Shown here piece by piece: positions 4,587-31,446 of a stretch of DNA of 39,429 bases. The notes below the pieces were generated by a model that was given only the letters and a program-made list of their open reading frames with translations, made no database searches and was not told the DNA's origin. The DNA lies in NCBI GenBank assembly GCA_035290745.1, contig DATDTS010000070.1, positions 1-39,429 on the forward strand, read 5' to 3'. Within the stretch, counting starts at the first letter, position 1; each line of letters starts with the position of its first letter. The position numbers and the translations under genes are program-made. The stretch comes from Candidatus Bilamarchaeaceae archaeon. GTDB taxonomy: Archaea > Micrarchaeota > Micrarchaeia > Anstonellales > Bilamarchaeaceae.

Positions 4587-5903
4587 ATGTTTAAAGTAGT
4601 TAAATTTGGGGGAAGTTCATTAGCATCTGCTGACCTATTCAAACAAGTTGCAGAAATCATTCAATCAGATAAAGACAGAAAAGTCGTTGTAGTTTCAGCA
4701 CCTGGAAGATCAAATCCAAACGATTCTAAAACAACTGACCTGCTAATTAAAATCTCTGAAAATGTTTTAAGTGGGAAGGCATATTCCAAAGAATTTGATG
4801 AAATTAAAGAGAGATTAATTAATTTGGAAAAAGAACTAGATCCTAAAACACCTGTTGCAAATTTAATGACGAGTGAACTTCAAAAAAGAATTAAGAAAAG
4901 GGAAAAAAACGCAATTATTGCATTAGGTGAAGAATTTTCAGCAAGGCTTTTAGCTGATTATCTGGAGGGTTCTGTTTATTTAGATCCAAAAGATGCTAAT
5001 TTTCTGATTGATGAAACCCCCTATGGGAAAAGATATGTACCAAAATCATCATTTTTCTCAATTAGACAGGTATTCAATAAATTAAAAGATAAAATAGTTA
5101 TTTTTCCTGGTTTTTTTGGAATTGATTCAAGGGGAAGAATAAGGGTACTTCAAAGGGGTGGAAGCGATTACACAGCATCAATCCTATCAGTTATTTTAAA
5201 TGCAGATTTACATGAGAATTTCACTGATGTTGATGGTATCTCAGTTGTTGAACCTGATATTCTGCCAGATACAGAGAAAATAAGATTTATGTCACTTTAT
5301 GAATTAAGCGAATTAACCTTAGATGGGTCTTTTGGTGTTTTTCAGGATTTTGCAGTTGCCCCTCTTGCGCGAAATAAAATTCAAATTCATGTTTTATCTA
5401 CAAAATTGCCAAAAGGTGAAGGGACAAGAATTGTTGAAACTTTACCTAATAATTTACCTAAAATAAGAGGAATTGCCTGTAAAAAAGACTTTGTAATATT
5501 TGATATTTTCAAATATGGTCTTGATCAGGAAATCGGCCTAAAACTAGAATTAGAAAAAATATTCGCAAATCACAAGCTCTCAGTTGGTCGTGTTCCAAGT
5601 TCTTTGAATTCAATGTCCATTATTCTGTCATGTAAATTGGATCTTTCAACCCTAAGTCAGGAAATAAAAGATGCAGTTAAACCAGATGAGCTAAGAGTTA
5701 TCAATGATGTTGCTTTGGTTTCAGTTGTAGGGGAGGAACTTGAAAAAACAAAAGGAGTTGGAATGAGAATCCTAAAATCAATTTCTGATCATGATATAAA
5801 CATTCTCAAGGCAATGTTTGATGGTATCAACTTCGTTTGTGTTATTCCAAATAATGAAGCAAAAAAAGCTGTAAAAGCAATTTATGAGGAGTTTTTTGCT
5901 TAG
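4587..5903 (+). CDS. aspartate kinase
   Basis: Amino-acid-kinase N-terminus VVKFGGSSLA and VVVVSAPGRSN..TTD. C-terminal ACT-like repeats (VALVSVVGEEL.., INFVCVIPNNEA). ATG at 4587 is preferred over the TTG at 4572 given in the track. Confidence 0.85.
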   Translation: MFKVVKFGGSSLASADLFKQVAEIIQSDKDRKVVVVSAPGRSNPNDSKTTDLLIKISENVLSGKAYSKEFDEIKERLINLEKELDPKTPVANLMTSELQKRIKKREKNAIIALGEEFSARLLADYLEGSVYLDPKDANFLIDETPYGKRYVPKSSFFSIRQVFNKLKDKIVIFPGFFGIDSRGRIRVLQRGGSDYTASILSVILNADLHENFTDVDGISVVEPDILPDTEKIRFMSLYELSELTLDGSFGVFQDFAVAPLARNKIQIHVLSTKLPKGEGTRIVETLPNNLPKIRGIACKKDFVIFDIFKYGLDQEIGLKLELEKIFANHKLSVGRVPSSLNSMSIILSCKLDLSTLSQEIKDAVKPDELRVINDVALVSVVGEELEKTKGVGMRILKSISDHDINILKAMFDGINFVCVIPNNEAKKAVKAIYEEFFA

Positions 5904-27304: not shown

Positions 27305-27330
27305 TTCTTTTTATTGTGTATTATCTTTAT

Positions 27331-27369
27331 GCAGGGATCTTATTGAACATTTTGTTCAATTCTCCCAGC
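27331..27369 (+). other. 39-nt leader minihelix copying the acceptor strands of the downstream tRNA
   Basis: Reads GCAGGGA-TCTT-ATTGAAC-ATTTT-GTTCAAT-TC-TCCCAGC. An 11-nt spacer AGTTCATTCAT (27370-27380) follows, then tRNA position 1 at 27381. Confidence 0.6.
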
Positions 27370-27380
27370 AGTTCATTCAT

Positions 27381-27709
27381 GCAGGGATGACGGAGCGGTC
27401 AAAAGCTTTTTGGCTACTTATAAACATTTGCCAAAAACCTTGGAAAAAGGCATATTGCAATTCTTTAGTGTGGCTGTCCAAACGTGCTAGGTTGAGGTTC
27501 TTTTGGATTAGCAAGTCCGTTTTTGGACTCGCTTTTCCTAAAAAGCGAGAGCCTAGTGGCTTAGTGCTTGCGAGAAACTTTTGACTTCGGTCATTCATAC
27601 GCCAAAAGTTTCATCAAAAGGCGTAATGTTCGCATAAGTTCGAACCTTCGCCAACTTTGTTGGTGAATTTTTAACGAAGCACAGCGAAGTTAAAACCTCT
27701 CTCCCTGCA
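27381..27709 (+). tRNA. interrupted class II tRNA gene, best reading tRNA-Leu(GAG), 329-nt locus with three long insertions
   Basis: The acceptor stem GCAGGGA pairs 7/7 with TCCCTGC (27702-27708), with discriminator A at 27709. The 5' end GCAGGGATGACGGAGCGGTCAAA has a Leu/Ser-type D loop. D stem ACG closes with CGT only after skipping 79 nt (27404-27482). The anticodon arm is CTAGG-TTGAGG(T) at 27487-27498, closing with CCTAG at 27552-27556 after about 53 nt. The anticodon GAG is at 27494-27496. The long variable arm is TGGCTTAGTGCTTGC. T stem GAGA(27572-27575)+G(27689) pairs with CTCTC after about 113 nt. Predicted mature length is 84 nt. The T loop TTAAAAC is atypical (A at position 56), so the 3' part is the weakest. 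Confidence 0.55.
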
Positions 27710-27732
27710 TTTATTTTTAAGCCCAAAATCTG

Positions 27733-28020
27733 TCAAAAAAATTTGAGGGCATGTGACACAAAAAAAGCAATGATTGCCATTGTTGATATTGCCAAGACTG
27801 GAATAAGAAATTTTTCCTGCTTTTTTATCTCTATTTTTGGGCCAAATAATGAGATTACTATAAATAATCCGATTGAAATAATCCCCTTTCCGAGCCAGTG
27901 ATGCCAAAAATTATTGGCTAACCAATCTTTTGCTGGTTTGTATAATTCAGCAAATATCGTTATTGTTGCAATGAAGACAATTACCAATAATGTTGCTAGA
28001 AACACAGATTCAATTTTCAT
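27733..28020 (-). CDS. small three-helix membrane protein, hypothetical
   Basis: Strongly hydrophobic 95-aa ORF. Its ATG overlaps the stop of the upstream gene (ATGA). Preferred over the overlapping 27671..27907 ORF. Confidence 0.45.
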   Translation of the reverse strand: MKIESVFLATLLVIVFIATITIFAELYKPAKDWLANNFWHHWLGKGIISIGLFIVISLFGPKIEIKKQEKFLIPVLAISTMAIIAFFVSHALKFF

Positions 28021-28481
28021 ACCTTTGCCTCCAATGCTGCGCGTGCAGCGTTCGAGATTAGCGCTCCTACAAATTCCATCATAAAACCAAATAAAACTAT
28101 TGTTACTGCAATTATCAAAAGCGTTCTTCTAACTTCTTCAATCCTATTACTATAATTTTTTATTAAAAAAACCTCAAGAAAAGCAAGAAAAGGTAAAAAC
28201 AAAAACAAATGTTCTTTAACTTCCATACCAATAGAATGAACCCATTCTGCCTCTTCTTTTACGAGTGGTTTTACATTTGGGCCATAAACTGTTACGTAAT
28301 AATATCCACCCATTATCCAAGATCCCAAAAGTGCAACCAATCCTAAAACGGAAAGTATCTGAATCCTATCAATGCTTTGTTTATTTATCCTAGATAAAAT
28401 TAAGAGTTCTATGGCGATCCACATAAAAGTCATAAAACCAAAGGCGCCAGCAATTGCATGAAACACAATTAATAAATTCAT
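28017..28481 (-). CDS. four-helix membrane protein with conserved-looking His residues, hypothetical
   Basis: 154 aa with four hydrophobic helices and His at positions 8, 82 and 91. It starts 17 nt after the nrdG stop on the same strand. Confidence 0.5.
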   Translation of the reverse strand: MNLLIVFHAIAGAFGFMTFMWIAIELLILSRINKQSIDRIQILSVLGLVALLGSWIMGGYYYVTVYGPNVKPLVKEEAEWVHSIGMEVKEHLFLFLPFLAFLEVFLIKNYSNRIEEVRRTLLIIAVTIVLFGFMMEFVGALISNAARAALEAKV

Positions 28482-28498: not shown

Positions 28499-29197
28499 TT
28501 ATTCGAGCCCTCTTATTCCAACATTTTGTACATACCTCTCAGCTATCTTTTTAAATGTTTTCAGTTGCTCTGCTGAATACGGTTCAATCTTAGAAAATTT
28601 TGGGTTAATATGTGTTTTAGTTGGCCTAAATTGCTGAAGGAAATATCTTTTTGCGCCTTTTATCCACTTTCCAATCTCTTCAGCTTCTTTTTCATCAAAT
28701 TGCGTTGGCACAACGGTTGTTCTGAATTCATAATCAACCTCTCCGTTAATTAAGAATTTTATTGTCTCTTCAATTTTAGACAAATCTATTTTAACCCCAA
28801 CAACTTTTTCATAATTCTCCTTTGATGCTTTCACATCCATTGCTATGTAGTCTAAAAGTTTCTTATCACACAATTCCTTAACCTTCTCTGGATTGAGTCC
28901 GTTAGTATCAAGTTTAATAGCGTAGCCCATTCCTTTTATTTTTTTACATAGTTCATCAAGATCAGGATAAAGGGTTGGTTCTCCTCCAGTTATACAAACC
29001 CCCTCAAGGTACTTTTTCTTTTTTTCAAGAAAAGAAATAACCTCATCATCGTCTATTTTCTGGAGTTTTCTGCTGTTGAGAACGAGATCAACATTATAAC
29101 AGTATCCGCATCTTAACTGACATTCCCCTAAAAATAAAGTACAGCAAATCTTTCCAGGAAAATCTATCAGTGATGTTTTTTGTATGCCATTTATCAT
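28499..29197 (-). CDS. nrdG: anaerobic ribonucleoside-triphosphate reductase activating protein (radical SAM)
   Basis: SLIDFPGKICCTLFLGECQLRCGYCYN contains the CxxxCxxC cluster motif. GGEPTL is present. Adjacent to nrdD. Confidence 0.85.
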   Translation of the reverse strand: MINGIQKTSLIDFPGKICCTLFLGECQLRCGYCYNVDLVLNSRKLQKIDDDEVISFLEKKKKYLEGVCITGGEPTLYPDLDELCKKIKGMGYAIKLDTNGLNPEKVKELCDKKLLDYIAMDVKASKENYEKVVGVKIDLSKIEETIKFLINGEVDYEFRTTVVPTQFDEKEAEEIGKWIKGAKRYFLQQFRPTKTHINPKFSKIEPYSAEQLKTFKKIAERYVQNVGIRGLE

Positions 29198-29213
29198 CTA
29201 TTTACCTAGTCCA

Positions 29214-29351
29214 TCAGTCACACGCGCATTTGTTTACTTGATATTCTTCCCTGTCTTCAAACTCCTGTTTTTTACCAACATTCCAATTTTGGACTGGTCT
29301 AAAGTATCCAACTATTCTACTATATACCTCTGTTTCTTTTCCACATTTCAT
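29214..29351 (-). CDS. stand-alone glycyl-radical C-terminal segment of NrdD (45 aa, not in the ORF track)
   Basis: My translation is MKCGKETEVYSRIVGYFRPVQNWNVGKKQEFEDREEYQVNKCACD. It contains the class III RNR glycyl-radical motif (SRIVGY) and the conserved RPVQNWNxGK. AAAGGTGATT lies 3 nt upstream of the ATG. Confidence 0.75.
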   Translation of the reverse strand: MKCGKETEVYSRIVGYFRPVQNWNVGKKQEFEDREEYQVNKCACD

Positions 29352-29375
29352 TTAATCACCTTTATTTCAATTGGA

Positions 29376-29407
29376 GGTGAGCAGTGAACGTAGTTCACTC
29401 AATCACC
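29376..29407. repeat. extended hairpin with core GTGAAC-GTA-GTTCAC spanning the stop codon of the large nrdD ORF
   Basis: GGTGA-GC-AGTGAAC-GTA-GTTCACT-CAA-TCACC. The same 15-nt core as at 10639-10653 and 10707-10721. The core here is at 29384-29398. Confidence 0.85.
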
Positions 29408-31446
29408 TTTTCGATTATTTCTTCTGATTGGTGAGGACATGTAAAATGTTCCCCTTTAATATAACCATGTTCCGGACATACACTAAACGTCGGGGTTATG
29501 GTGAAGTAAGGTAGTTTGAAGTTAAATGCAATTTTTTTGACTAATTTCATTGTTGTTTTCCAGTCATCAATTCTCTCGCCTAAAAACGAATGAAGTACGG
29601 TTCCTCCGGTATACAAAGTTTGGAATTCGTCTTGATGTTCCAAGGCTTCAAATACATCTTCTGTAAAATTAACTGGAAGATGAGTTGAATTAGTATAATA
29701 TGGTCTTTCTCTAGTGCCAGCAGTTATTATATCCGGATACAATTCCCTATCTTTTTTTGCAAATCTATACGTTGCAGATTCACATGGCGTAGCTTCAAGG
29801 TTGTAAAGATTTTGTGTTTCTCCCTGGAACACCTTAATCTCACGTCTTATAAACTCCATCACCTCAACTGCAAAAATCTTTCCCTTTTCTGTTTCTATTC
29901 CTTCTCCCATAAAATTTAGTAAAGCTTCATGCATTCCATTAATTCCAATTGTTGAGAAATGGTTTTGATAAGTTCCAAGAAACTTCTTTGTGAATGGCAT
30001 TAATCCAGCTTTAACATTTGCTTCAACCACCTTTCTTTTTATTTCAAGTGATTCCTTTGCAATTTTTAATATATACCCAAGCCTTTGAAAGAATTCTTCT
30101 TTAGTCTTAGCAATATACCCTATTCTCGGAAGATTTATTGTAACAACTCCTATGCTTCCAGTTTGATCAGCTGCCCCAAAAAGTCCGCCCATCTTATTTT
30201 TTAACTCTTTCAGATCAAGTTGAAGTCTGCAGCACATACTTCTAATATCAGATGGTTTTAGAGTACTGTTTATAAAATTCTGGAAATATGGTATCCCATA
30301 TTTTGCCGTCATTTCAAATAACAATCTTGCATTTTCTGATTCCCAGTTGAACTCATTTGTTATATTATAGGTTGGGATTGGATAAAAGAAAGCCCTTCCT
30401 TTTGCATCGCCTTCAATCATTACCTCAATAAATGCCTTGTTTATCATGTCCATTTCTTCTTGGCATTCACTATACGTAAATGTTTGTAGTTCTCCACCAA
30501 CAATTGCTGGTTCATCTTTCATATCTTCAGGCACTATCCAGTCAAAAGTAAAATTTGTAAATGGTGCCTGGCATCCCCATCTGCTTGGCACATTCAATGA
30601 AAAAACCAACATTTGAATATTTTGCTTTACTGTTTTGTATTCCAAGCCATCTTTTTTTATGAATGGTGCTAATAAGGTATCAACTGAGGAAAATGCTTGT
30701 GCTCCTGCATGTTCCATCTGCATTGTTCCTAAAAAATTCACCATTTGAACAACTGCAACCTCTAAATGTTTAGGTGGTAATGAACTGATCTTTTTTGGCA
30801 CACCACCAAACCCTGTTAATAATAAGTTTTTCAGTGACCATCCACAACAGTACCCAGTTACTCCGTACCCTAAATCATGAATATGCATATCACCATTTCT
30901 ATGTGCTTGGGCTACATTATCAGAGTAAATCTCATTAAGCGTATAATTTGCAATAATCTTTCCAGCAATATGAGACATCAAACCTGAAAAGGAATAATCA
31001 GAATTGCTGTTTTCATACACTCTCCAGTCAGTTTTTTTTAGGTATTCATCCATAGTATTCCTTACTTCTACAAATCCCCCTTGTATATTTCTAATCTTCT
31101 CATGCTGTTTTCTGTATAAAATATATCCCTTTGCAGTCTGGGCATATCCCTCTTTTATAAGTACTTTTTCTACTATATCTTGAATTTGTTCTACTGAACA
31201 TAATGCATTTTTACCATAAGCATTTTCCATTTCTTCAATTACTTTATTTGTGAGTTCGTCAGCTATCTTTTCCCCGAACTCTTGTGTTGTTTTAGCAGCA
31301 CTATAAATAGCATTTTTTATTCTTGTTTTATCAAATTTTACAATCCTCCCATCTCTCTTCTGTATAAACTGTGGTGTCTCAGATTTTGTGTTCATATTTT
31401 TCATCTCCATCTCTTTTGTGCATTTTATATTTTTAAAGGTTTCCAA
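29395..31446 (-). CDS. nrdD: anaerobic ribonucleoside-triphosphate reductase NrdD, large fragment lacking the glycyl-radical end
   Basis: ATP-cone (IQKRDGRIVKFDKTRIKNAIYSAA) and class III RNR core. The ORF ends ..FSVCPEHGYIKGEHFTCPHQSEEIIEKVIE, in the middle of the zinc-ribbon region. The true start is probably one of the ATGs at 31410, 31404 or 31395 rather than the TTG at 31446. Confidence 0.9.
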   Translation of the reverse strand: METFKNIKCTKEMEMKNMNTKSETPQFIQKRDGRIVKFDKTRIKNAIYSAAKTTQEFGEKIADELTNKVIEEMENAYGKNALCSVEQIQDIVEKVLIKEGYAQTAKGYILYRKQHEKIRNIQGGFVEVRNTMDEYLKKTDWRVYENSNSDYSFSGLMSHIAGKIIANYTLNEIYSDNVAQAHRNGDMHIHDLGYGVTGYCCGWSLKNLLLTGFGGVPKKISSLPPKHLEVAVVQMVNFLGTMQMEHAGAQAFSSVDTLLAPFIKKDGLEYKTVKQNIQMLVFSLNVPSRWGCQAPFTNFTFDWIVPEDMKDEPAIVGGELQTFTYSECQEEMDMINKAFIEVMIEGDAKGRAFFYPIPTYNITNEFNWESENARLLFEMTAKYGIPYFQNFINSTLKPSDIRSMCCRLQLDLKELKNKMGGLFGAADQTGSIGVVTINLPRIGYIAKTKEEFFQRLGYILKIAKESLEIKRKVVEANVKAGLMPFTKKFLGTYQNHFSTIGINGMHEALLNFMGEGIETEKGKIFAVEVMEFIRREIKVFQGETQNLYNLEATPCESATYRFAKKDRELYPDIITAGTRERPYYTNSTHLPVNFTEDVFEALEHQDEFQTLYTGGTVLHSFLGERIDDWKTTMKLVKKIAFNFKLPYFTITPTFSVCPEHGYIKGEHFTCPHQSEEIIEKVIE

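What the first reader, a model, noticed from the sequence alone, without database searches (positions are those of the whole stretch)
29214..29439. nrdD is split inside the C-terminal CxxC: the glycyl-radical segment is a separate, SD-preceded 45-codon ORF
The large ORF ends ..GEHFTCP-HQSEEIIEKVIE-stop at 29395-29397. 43 nt further on, in a different frame, the small ORF begins: MKCGKETEVYSRIVGYFRPVQNWNVGKKQEFEDR... In intact class III reductases, as I recall them, the sequence runs ..CPxCG..EVYSRVVGY.. without interruption. Here 85 nt (29349-29433) therefore sit between CP and KCG. They supply a stop codon, a GGTGAT Shine-Dalgarno sequence and an ATG. The radical-bearing glycine would then be on a 45-aa peptide separate from the 683-aa catalytic body. 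The fourth zinc-ribbon Cys would also be on the small peptide. Within the 85 nt, 17-nt direct repeats AAAGGTGATTGAGTGAA (29394-29410) and AAAGGTGATTAAATGAA (29347-29363) lie 47 nt apart and flank the GTGAAC-GTA-GTTCAC hairpin. Removing one 47-nt unit leaves ..KVIK-stop overlapping the ATG (ATGA), a classic translational-coupling junction. This suggests an older split that was later hit by the hairpin element. A detachable glycyl-radical module recalls the spare-part protein GrcA/YfiD of pyruvate formate-lyase. I am not aware of this arrangement being described for NrdD.
Basis: partly seen in the sequence, partly recalled or inferred. Interest (0 to 1): 0.8.

Follow-up and report, generated by a model that had tools for sequence, protein, structure and literature searches.

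The report
Two-piece anaerobic ribonucleotide reductase gene
The oxygen-sensitive enzyme that makes DNA building blocks is encoded here in two pieces, with its radical-carrying tip on a separate 45-residue peptide, and this is a conserved, widespread and apparently undescribed design, not a broken gene.

Summary
The class III ribonucleotide reductase gene nrdD stops right after Cys-Pro of the second zinc-ribbon knuckle. 85 nt later, in another frame, a Shine-Dalgarno-preceded 45-codon ORF encodes the fourth Cys and the glycyl-radical loop. The activase gene nrdG follows. It is not an assembly error: 14 contigs carry the small ORF, and the ten read have the same junction. It is not a pseudogene: the small ORF is under strong purifying selection. 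It is not unique. 90 of the 120 closest NrdD homologues end at the same spot. 62 of 159 untargeted loci are split, including Pseudomonas and Cupriavidus necator H16, where RefSeq annotates two CDSs. Frames, spacers and stop codons vary, which argues against recoding or splicing. Close relatives join the two ORFs by an SD-plus-ATGA overlap. This window carries an extra 47 nt that looks like a local inverted-plus-direct duplication of that junction. The most likely reading is a two-chain enzyme with a detachable radical peptide. Whether the peptide also serves as a replaceable part after oxygen damage is untested. I found no paper describing it, and a 2026 review says spare-part proteins are known only for pyruvate formate-lyase.

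The parts
29395..31395 (-). nrdD large chain: ATP-cone plus catalytic barrel plus the first three zinc-ribbon ligands (Cys640, His643, Cys653 in the 666-aa numbering), then a 12-residue tail HQSEEIIEKVIE and TGA. A TTG at 31446 would add 17 residues.
   Evidence: Pfam ATP-cone and NRDD positions 1-526; NCBIfam NF006126 at 1053 bits. Gene callers give 666 aa. Invariant columns are listed.
29349..29433 (-). The 85 nt between the Pro codon of CP and the Lys codon of KCG: tail codons, stop, spacer, SD and ATG.
   Evidence: Direct reading; profile break at position 526.
29394..29410 (-). Repeat copy 1, AAAGGTGATTGAGTGAA. It is the relic of the ancestral SD/stop-start junction and now holds the large-ORF stop (TGA 29397-29395) overlapped by a GTG.
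   Evidence: compare the L172 junction GAGAAGGTGATAAAATGA.
29375..29408 (-). RNA hairpin formed by repeat copy 1 and its imperfect inverted copy (GTTCACTGCTCACCT). It sequesters the first SD copy and the large-ORF stop codon.
   Evidence: -16.1 kcal/mol, z = -1.96. The second SD and the AUG are unpaired in the MFE structure.
29348..29398 (-). Possible 16-codon relay mini-ORF (GTG..MNYVHCSPPIEIKVIK..TGA). It overlaps the large-ORF stop (GTGA) and the small-ORF start (ATGA). Speculative.
   Evidence: Direct reading and the frame f2 translation. There is no comparative support, because all ten loci are identical here.
29347..29363 (-). Repeat copy 2, AAAGGTGATTAAATGAA: the working Shine-Dalgarno sequence (GGTGAT, 29355-29360) and the start codon (ATG, 29349-29351) of the small ORF.
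   Evidence: The same SD type precedes ftsZ, the rpoD-like gene and the S13 gene of the same genome.
29214..29351 (-). nrdD small chain, 45 aa: fourth zinc-ribbon Cys (Cys3, 29343-29345) and the glycyl-radical loop RIVGY (Gly15, 29307-29309).
   Evidence: Pfam NRDD positions 526-562, E = 8.6e-12. pN is 0.08-0.14 against pS of 0.5-1.0 when compared with relatives. 107 stand-alone homologues were found.
28499..29197 (-). nrdG, the radical-SAM activase. It starts 16 nt after the small-ORF stop.
   Evidence: NCBIfam TIGR02495 NrdG2, 203 bits against a cut-off of 131.

Best explanation
This is a two-chain class III (anaerobic) ribonucleotide reductase. nrdD has undergone gene fission at the surface knuckle of the C-terminal zinc ribbon.

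- **Large chain:** carries the ATP-cone, the barrel and three metal ligands.
- **Small chain:** a 45-residue peptide, translated from its own GGUGAU Shine-Dalgarno sequence and AUG. It carries the fourth Cys and the glycine that the downstream-encoded activase NrdG converts to a radical.
- **Assembly:** the peptide docks non-covalently into the barrel, where the covalently attached domain sits in single-chain enzymes.

The genes, their conservation, the selection on the small ORF and the independent translation signals are shown. Non-covalent assembly, an inter-chain zinc site, and any benefit from exchanging an oxygen-cleaved peptide without remaking the 76-kDa body are inferred.

The split is old. 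In the closest relatives the two ORFs are translationally coupled by an SD inside the large-ORF tail and an ATGA overlap. In this species a 47-nt local duplication pushed the two ORFs 43 nt apart. The unit is junction, inverted copy, junction, which is most simply a template-switch event. It created a hairpin over the now-defunct first junction copy and left the second copy free to start the small ORF.
For: 1. **Exact break.** The profile match stops at NRDD position 526 on the large ORF and resumes there on the small ORF. The activase gene is adjacent.
2. **Real sequence.** 14 contigs carry the small ORF. The ten read, from ten samples, have an identical junction. They include a strain 96-97.5% identical to the window over the aligned flanking sequence.
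3. **Clade-wide.** Of the 120 best homologues of the large chain, 90 stop just after the third ligand, 23 are intact and 7 are intact with an in-frame insertion at the same spot. The window sits in an all-split clade of 55, and a neighbour-joining tree needs at least 10 state changes.
4. **Widespread.** 62 of 159 untargeted loci from GTDB genomes and JGI metagenomes are split. They include Margulisiibacteriota, Nanoarchaeia, Lentisphaeria, Pseudomonas, Stutzerimonas, Thiobacillus and Microbulbifer.
5. **Small chain under selection.** pN is 0.08-0.14 while synonymous sites are near saturation. dN/dS is 0.09 for the one unsaturated pair. The core EVYSRIVGYFRPVxNWNxGKKQEF is almost invariant in 107 stand-alone proteins of 36-79 aa. 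Of the best 150 cluster representatives among 1.84 billion, about 109 are 90 aa or shorter.
6. **Independent translation.** The small ORF has its own SD and ATG, and the same SD type is used by other genes of this genome.
7. **Functional precedent.** C. necator H16 pHG1 has a 676-aa CDS, a 66-aa 'nrdD' CDS and the activase. Its nrdDG locus is reported as needed for full denitrification; a pHG1-free strain grows poorly on nitrate (PMC2864759, citing Siedow 1999).
8. **Mobile domain.** In solved single-chain enzymes the glycyl-radical domain behaves as a mobile, largely rigid body (PMC11226230).
9. **Structure model.** An AF2 model of large plus small chain keeps the NrdD fold (pLDDT 86.8, pTM 0.82). 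Only residues 660-666, the end of the tail, fall below 50. This is not independent evidence, because intact homologues were in the alignment.
10. **Ancestral junction** in relatives.
Against: - There is no protein, transcript or ribosome-profiling evidence for this organism or, in what I could read, for any split NrdD.
- The 47-nt insertion breaks the ancestral coupling. That could be the first step of decay in this one species, and within-species data are too sparse to measure selection: 27 differences in the operon and none in 29200-29500, which is not significant.
- An inter-chain zinc site is not universal. A few stand-alone peptides have no Cys. Many large chains carry His or Cys straight after CP (35/88 split against 2/30 intact) and may complete the site themselves.
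- The adaptive repair idea is untested. Repeated fission and fusion at a permissive loop could be neutral.
Confidence: 0.85

Rival explanations
1. One polypeptide is restored during expression. Routes would be ribosomal frameshifting or bypassing (as in T4 gene 60), or removal of the 85 nt from the RNA, for example as an archaeal bulge-helix-bulge intron.
For: - The insert sits exactly between two codons of a conserved motif.
- It contains a stop, a hairpin and SD-like sequences, all of which are elements of known recoding sites.
- In two relatives (L172, L173) the junction A-AAA-UGA would let tRNA-Lys re-pair in the -1 frame and read on into AUG (my reading).
Against: - Across 67 split loci the small ORF lies in frame 0, +1 or +2 (17/28/22). 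In-frame cases have 1-6 stops. The spacing runs from -4 to +199 nt, and all three stop codons occur.
- The L174 junction GUA-UGA is not slippery.
- In the window a TAA stands directly before the ATG in the small-ORF frame, and two shifts would be needed.
- A scan for bulge-helix-bulge geometry scored no better than 18% of shuffles, and its best candidate creates a stop codon.
- The same split occurs in Bacteria, which lack the archaeal splicing endonuclease.
- 85 nt is far too short for a group I or II intron, and Rfam found nothing.
Confidence: 0.05
2. It is a decaying pseudogene. A frameshifting insertion killed nrdD, and the organism relies on another reductase or on its host.
For: - DPANN archaea have reduced genomes and often lose biosynthetic genes.
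- The window-specific 47-nt insertion is recent.
- I could not search the rest of the genome.
Against: - Both ORFs are intact and match their profiles end to end.
- The same break is kept across lineages at 60-75% identity, with the small ORF under purifying selection.
- nrdG is intact and adjacent.
- No second nrdD lies in the 39 kb.
Confidence: 0.04
3. It is a sequencing or assembly artefact.
For: None found. AT-rich homopolymer runs can in general cause frameshift errors.
Against: - Ten loci from ten different samples and four sources (NCBI, ENA, Logan, JGI) have an identical junction.
- The difference from an intact gene is 85 nt, not a single base.
Confidence: 0.01
4. The two-chain enzyme is real, but the split has no adaptive role. 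It would be a neutral fission at an insertion-tolerant surface loop, kept only because the pieces still assemble.
For: - The same loop tolerates in-frame insertions of 4-31 residues in intact enzymes (P0065, P0081, P0083, P0088, P0097, P0100, P0105).
- Split and fused states interconvert at least 10 times on the tree.
- Break points differ. DPANN-type loci break inside CxxC. Proteobacterial loci break after an intact CPxCD.
Against: - The split state is very frequent, about 39% of untargeted loci, and stable through a 55-member clade.
- It is common in facultative anaerobes and denitrifiers that meet oxygen, such as Pseudomonas, Cupriavidus and Bradyrhizobium plasmids. That is where a cheap replaceable radical carrier would pay.
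- All of this is suggestive only.
Confidence: 0.4

Closest known systems
Single-chain class III ribonucleotide reductase NrdD with activase NrdG (T4 1H7A, T. maritima 4COI, P. copri 8P23, S. thermophilus 9DCA)
   Same: - Same family: ATP-cone, barrel, zinc ribbon, RxxGY radical loop and an adjacent radical-SAM activase.
- Same expected chemistry.
   Different: In every solved structure the glycyl-radical domain is the C-terminus of the same chain. Here it is a separate 45-aa gene product, and the zinc ligands are divided 3 + 1.
GrcA/YfiD (and T4 Y06I), the autonomous glycyl-radical 'spare part' of pyruvate formate-lyase
   Same: A small stand-alone protein that carries only the glycyl-radical loop of a large glycyl-radical enzyme and must be activated by that enzyme's activase (PMC13450708).
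   Different: - GrcA replaces a resident domain after oxygen cleavage and is encoded apart from pflB. Here the large chain has no resident domain, so the peptide is obligate, and it lies inside the operon.
- It belongs to a different sequence family (PF13597 tail, not the PFL Gly_radical domain).
- The 2026 review states that spare parts are known only for formate lyases.
Split class II reductase NrdJa/NrdJb (Pseudomonas aeruginosa, Thermus phage phiYS40)
   Same: A ribonucleotide reductase encoded by two consecutive ORFs. The C-terminal piece holds a zinc-finger module (PMC9669993; PMC3653736).
   Different: - It is a different class using a B12 cofactor, with no protein radical on the small piece.
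- NrdJb is a large multi-domain protein, not a 45-aa peptide.
Genes-in-pieces NrdA of Aeromonas phage Aeh1, and fragmented or intron-split phage nrdD (T4, phiAS4)
   Same: RNR genes interrupted yet functional. nrdD is the most often interrupted RNR gene in phages (PMC3653736).
   Different: - Those interruptions are homing endonucleases, group I introns or inteins, or unexplained recent breaks in single phages.
- They are not a conserved detachment of the radical loop with its own start signals.
Translational bypassing of the 50-nt gap in T4 gene 60
   Same: A short non-coding gap inside a conserved coding sequence, with a stop, a hairpin and an SD-like element.
   Different: - There are no matched take-off and landing codons that restore the frame.
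- The downstream ORF has its own start.
- Gap length and frame are not conserved among relatives.

Membership tests
Class III ribonucleotide reductase NrdD (PF13597 / NF006126 / TIGR02487) | Catalytic barrel matching the NRDD profile, with the conserved Cys-Cys segment (..SMCCRL..) that I take to be the finger loop | tested here: met
   NRDD positions 1-526 at E = 1.6e-174; NF006126 at 1053 bits against a cut-off of 548. M387-C388-C389-R390-L391 are invariant in 57 sequences. The finger-loop assignment is from my own knowledge, not tested here.
Class III ribonucleotide reductase NrdD (PF13597 / NF006126 / TIGR02487) | C-terminal glycyl-radical loop (RxxGY) on the same polypeptide as the barrel | tested here: not met
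   The loop (SRIVGY) is on the separate 45-aa ORF 29214-29351, in another frame and 85 nt after the CP codons.
Class III ribonucleotide reductase NrdD (PF13597 / NF006126 / TIGR02487) | Four-ligand zinc ribbon preceding the radical loop | tested here: inconclusive
   The ligands are present but divided: C640, H643 and C653 on the large chain, Cys3 on the peptide. A His follows CP in the large chain and could substitute. Metal binding is not testable here.
Class III ribonucleotide reductase NrdD (PF13597 / NF006126 / TIGR02487) | Adjacent radical-SAM activase NrdG | tested here: met
   TIGR02495 NrdG2 at 203 bits against a cut-off of 131, 16 nt downstream of the small ORF.
Class III ribonucleotide reductase NrdD (PF13597 / NF006126 / TIGR02487) | Formation of a glycyl radical and NTP reduction | not testable with these tools
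   Needs biochemistry. The only indirect support is that the split C. necator H16 locus is reported as needed for full denitrification.
Autonomous glycyl-radical spare part (GrcA/YfiD type) | Small stand-alone protein consisting essentially of a glycyl-radical loop | tested here: met
   45 aa, matching only the last 37 profile positions of NRDD.
Autonomous glycyl-radical spare part (GrcA/YfiD type) | Coexists with a parent enzyme that has its own resident radical domain, which it replaces after oxygen cleavage | tested here: not met
   The large chain ends before the radical loop, and no second nrdD lies in the 39-kb window. The rest of the genome was not searchable.
Autonomous glycyl-radical spare part (GrcA/YfiD type) | Homology to the PFL glycyl-radical domain | tested here: not met
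   The only Pfam hit is PF13597 NRDD.
Split (two-ORF) ribonucleotide reductases such as NrdJa/NrdJb | Two consecutive ORFs that together cover the single-chain homologue, both conserved | tested here: met
   Profile coverage is 1-526 plus 526-562. Both parts are conserved across many lineages.
Programmed translational bypass or frameshift site | Conserved recoding signal (matched take-off and landing codons or a slippery site) at a fixed frame relation | tested here: not met
   All frame relations occur, spacing runs from -4 to +199 nt, and junction sequences are not conserved. A TAA precedes the ATG in the window.
Archaeal bulge-helix-bulge intron | Two 3-nt bulges separated by a 4-bp helix at the two junctions, with an in-frame product after removal | tested here: not met
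   The best geometry scores 10/12 pairs, a score reached by 18% of shuffles, and would create a UAA. The same split is present in Bacteria.

The most novel reading that the evidence does not exclude
Class III ribonucleotide reductases exist in a common natural two-chain form, in which the glycyl radical lives on a free, NrdG-rechargeable mini-protein of roughly 40-80 residues that acts like an exchangeable protein cofactor. After oxygen cleaves the radical peptide, the cell would need to replace only that peptide, not the 76-kDa body. That would be the first 'spare-part' logic outside pyruvate formate-lyase, and here it would be the default state of the enzyme. In this window's clade the peptide would also be clamped on by a zinc site shared between the two chains (3 + 1 ligands).
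Probability: 0.3. Interest if true: 0.8.

Novelty: new variant of a known kind. Interest (0 to 1): 0.6.

Why it matters
Glycyl-radical enzymes are destroyed by oxygen through backbone cleavage at the radical glycine. The only known remedy is the PFL spare part GrcA. A 2026 review of the field lists whether other glycyl-radical enzymes have such parts as an open question.

A natural NrdD whose radical loop is a separate gene product would make that question directly testable. It is frequent in public genomes and present in genetically tractable bacteria such as Cupriavidus necator H16 and Pseudomonas species.

- **Radical installation:** it offers a minimal substrate for studying how NrdG installs the radical.
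- **Domain docking:** it would show how the domain enters and leaves the barrel.
- **Annotation:** large chains lacking the loop are labelled as complete reductases, and the mini-proteins are often labelled 'hypothetical'.
- **Phylogeny:** surveys that filter by length or assume a C-terminal glycine will misjudge these enzymes.

Tried and rejected
- **Rfam:** a scan of the whole window at gathering threshold gave no hit. No tRNAs were found.
- **Other copies of the hairpin/insert:** a search of the window allowing up to 3 mismatches found none, so there is no sign of a repeated mobile element.
- **Bulge-helix-bulge intron geometry:** no better than shuffles.
- **Bypass or frameshift reading:** rejected from frame and spacing statistics and from the junction sequences.
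- **Within-species conservation of the junction (window against L001):** uninformative, because the whole operon differs at only 27 sites.
- **GTDB and JGI scans for close relatives:** Close relatives had to be fetched one by one.
- **Phage collection:** only 7 weak matches to the peptide, mostly inside CDSs annotated as the reductase itself.
- **Literature:** seven full-text searches and several papers were read, and none describes a two-gene NrdD. The 1999 paper on the C. necator locus (PMC93980) is not held, so I could not check what it says about the C-terminus.
- **Single-sequence AF2 of the chimera:** useless, with pLDDT 36.
- **Downstream ORFs:** the 154-aa and 95-aa ORFs after nrdG have no Pfam match. 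The 154-aa ORF has no counterpart after nrdG in L172 or L174.
Full report
**Observation.** The locus lies on the minus strand. The large ORF (29395..31446 from TTG; gene callers start at the ATG at 31395, giving 666 aa) ends ..FSVCPEHGYIKGEHFTCP-HQSEEIIEKVIE-TGA. A 45-codon ORF (29214..29351) reads MKCGKETEVYSRIVGYFRPVQNWNVGKKQEFEDR.. A 232-codon ORF follows 16 nt later. Pfam matches NRDD profile positions 1-526 to the large ORF, ending at the Pro of CP, and positions 526-562 to residues 2-37 of the small ORF. The large ORF also has an ATP-cone. NCBIfam calls it NF006126 (1053 bits) and calls the third ORF NrdG2. Aligned to the solved T. maritima enzyme, the break lies inside CP|VCG. So 85 nt (29349-29433) separate two adjacent codons of the second zinc-ribbon knuckle, and the frames differ. 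The 17-nt repeats (29394-29410 and 29347-29363, 15/17 identical, 47 nt apart) are the only repeat family in the region. The hairpin is larger than first described, spanning 29375-29408 at -16.1 kcal/mol and z = -1.96.

**Not an artefact.** Fourteen contigs carry exactly this small ORF. The ten read come from ten different samples (NCBI, ENA, Logan, JGI). They show the same gene order and a junction identical over 141 nt. One of them is a strain 96-97.5% identical to the window over the aligned flanking sequence.

**Not a pseudogene, and not rare.** I read the C-termini of the 120 best homologues of the large chain (59-75% identity apart from the 100% self-match). Ninety stop a few residues after the third ligand. 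Twenty-three are intact (..CPxCGxxTEVYSR..). Seven are intact but carry an in-frame insertion of 4-31 residues at the same place. On a neighbour-joining tree of the barrel the window protein sits in a clade of 55 sequences that are all split. At least ten changes of state are needed overall. The sources name these proteins Nanoarchaeia, DPANN, Woesearchaeota, Margulisbacteria and Termititenax.

A search with the 45-aa peptide returned 107 proteins of 36-79 aa, all with the NRDD tail domain. They are named 'hypothetical protein' or 'anaerobic ribonucleoside-triphosphate reductase' where a name exists. Their core EVYSRIVGYFRPVxNWNxGKKQEFxDR is almost invariant, while the N-terminal lead-in varies. 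An exhaustive phmmer search of 1.84 billion cluster representatives gave 3101 hits. About 109 of the best 150 are 90 aa or shorter with their own start, and 98 of the 102 new short ones keep a Cys within 12 residues upstream of the SR motif.

At the DNA level, I compared the small ORF with three relatives. Non-synonymous differences are 0.08-0.14 per site, while synonymous sites are 0.5-1.0, mostly saturated. dN/dS is 0.09 for the one pair that can be estimated.

**Breadth across species.** In 159 loci fetched without regard to the split (80 GTDB species representatives and 79 JGI metagenome contigs), 62 are split, 92 intact, and 5 show no radical loop within reach. Split loci include Margulisiibacteriota, Nanoarchaeia, Lentisphaeria and Victivallaceae. 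They also include many Proteobacteria, among them Pseudomonas brassicacearum, Stutzerimonas stutzeri, Thiobacillus and Microbulbifer. The proteobacterial type breaks a few residues later: the large chain keeps CPxCD, and the peptide reads ..PCEVWTRVMGYHRPV.. On the C. necator H16 megaplasmid pHG1, RefSeq annotates a 676-aa 'ribonucleoside triphosphate reductase', a 66-aa 'nrdD' CDS and the activase. The nrdDG locus of that plasmid is reported as needed for full denitrification, and a pHG1-free strain grows poorly on nitrate (PMC2864759 citing Siedow et al. 1999). That is indirect evidence that a split enzyme works.

**One chain or two?** Among 67 split loci the peptide ORF lies in frame 0, +1 or +2 relative to the large ORF (17/28/22). 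The in-frame cases are separated by 1-6 stops. The distance from stop to start ranges from -4 to +199 nt, and all three stop codons occur. No single frameshift, bypass or read-through signal can account for that. In the window a TAA directly precedes the ATG in the peptide frame. A scan for bulge-helix-bulge intron geometry around the two junctions scored no better than 18% of shuffled sequences, and its best candidate would create a stop. The split also occurs in Bacteria. Rfam finds nothing. The peptide has its own GGTGAT Shine-Dalgarno sequence 3 nt before the ATG, and the same motif at similar spacing precedes ftsZ, the rpoD-like gene and the S13 gene of this genome. I conclude that two polypeptides are made (confidence 0.85).

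**History of the junction.**
- L172: ..GAG AAG GTG ATA AAA TGA, read as EKVIK*, overlapping ATG AAA TGT.
- L173: CCT GAG GTG AAA AAA TGA.
- L174: GGAGGTGAGAGTATGA.

In each case the SD lies inside the tail of the large ORF and the stop and start overlap as ATGA. The window has GAA AAG GTG ATT GAG TGA (EKVIE*), followed by 30 nt and then a second copy, AAAGGTGATTAAATGA. The 30 nt begin with an imperfect reverse complement of the first copy: GTTCACTGCTCACCT against GTTCACTCAATCACCT. The unit therefore reads junction, inverted junction, junction. The simplest source is a local template-switch duplication. No other copy of the sequence exists in the window, which argues against a mobile element. 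In the predicted RNA fold the first SD copy and the large-ORF stop are paired, and the second SD and the AUG are free. A 16-codon ORF (29398-29348) overlaps both the stop (GTGA) and the start (ATGA) and could relay ribosomes, but nothing supports it beyond the reading frame.

**How it probably works.** In single-chain enzymes the glycyl-radical domain is a mobile, largely rigid unit with a structural zinc site followed by the buried radical loop (PMC11226230). The break here is at the tip of the second zinc knuckle. An AF2 model of large chain joined to peptide, built with homologues in the alignment and so not independent, keeps the NrdD fold (pLDDT 86.8, pTM 0.82). Its best PDB matches are the class III reductases. 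Only residues 660-666, the end of the tail, fall below pLDDT 50. I infer that the peptide docks where the covalent domain sits, is activated by NrdG, and in this clade may be held by a zinc site with three ligands from the large chain and Cys3 of the peptide. Two observations complicate the zinc idea. A few stand-alone peptides have no Cys. The residue after CP in split large chains is His or Cys in 35 of 88, against 2 of 30 intact ones (it is His in the window), so the large chain may complete its own site.

**What is known.** Split class II reductases (NrdJa/NrdJb) and phage RNR genes interrupted by introns, inteins or endonucleases are described. GrcA/YfiD is the spare radical domain of PFL. 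A 2026 review says such parts are known only for formate lyases and that their existence for other glycyl-radical enzymes is undetermined. Seven full-text searches and the RNR phylogeny papers gave no description of a two-gene NrdD. I could not read the 1999 C. necator paper, so an older mention cannot be excluded. All solved class III structures are single chains.

**Verdict.** What is new is the recognition of a common two-chain variant of a well-known enzyme. The window itself is one ordinary member of that variant with a lineage-specific 47-nt rearrangement of the coupling junction. Interest 0.6.

Noticed in passing
window 27320-27720: A 448-nt ORF-free gap lies between the rpoD-like gene and a 95-aa ORF. 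It folds very strongly (+ strand -131.4 kcal/mol, z = -7.1; - strand z = -6.3) and is closed by an AUGCAGGGA/UCCCUGCAU helix. It is slightly GC-richer than its surroundings and has no Rfam family. In the related strain L001 part of it (window 27317-27545) is replaced by a longer, mostly unrelated stretch. It could be an unclassified structured RNA or a small mobile element.
   Followed up: partly
window 29431-29433 (His after CP); proteins P0001-P0120: In split large chains the residue right after the third ligand's Pro is His or Cys in 35/88, against 2/30 in intact enzymes. A further group has CPxEH. The large chain may complete the zinc site itself.
   Followed up: partly
proteins P0021, P0023, P0024, P0027, P0030, P0033, P0034, P0053 (tails) and P0081, P0083, P0088 (in-frame inserts): A motif EH[TS]xEE[IL]EK[YF]G[IV]E follows CP. 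It appears both as the translated tail of some split large chains and as part of a 24-residue in-frame insertion in intact enzymes. This links the insertion and the fission at this loop.
   Followed up: no
proteins P0013, P0016, P0017, P0020, P0031, P0037, P0039 and others: Some large ORFs run on for 30-50 residues (..NEVQQENRSVQPDSRLLSPSAELE). This is the peptide gene read in another frame, so in those genomes the two ORFs overlap extensively.
   Followed up: partly
proteins P0035, P0040 with peptides P0200, P0217: Two DPANN-type large chains have lost zinc ligands (SP instead of CP; IDPVHGY). The zinc site seems dispensable or rebuilt there.
   Followed up: no
window 29348-29398 (-): A 16-codon ORF starts at a GTG overlapping the large-ORF stop (GTGA) and ends at a TGA overlapping the peptide start (ATGA). 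It could relay terminating ribosomes, or it could be an accident of the duplication.
   Followed up: partly
window 27733-28481 (-): Two hydrophobic ORFs (154 aa and 95 aa, overlapping by 4 nt) follow nrdG in all strains of this species. Neither has a Pfam match, and the 154-aa ORF has no counterpart after nrdG in relatives L172 and L174.
   Followed up: partly
L091 (C. necator H16 pHG1) 4674-4874; Cupriavidus metallidurans CH34: The CH34 genome paper lists NrdDG as Rmet_5137 and Rmet_5139 and skips 5138. This would fit an unremarked small ORF between them, as in H16. Not verified.
   Followed up: no
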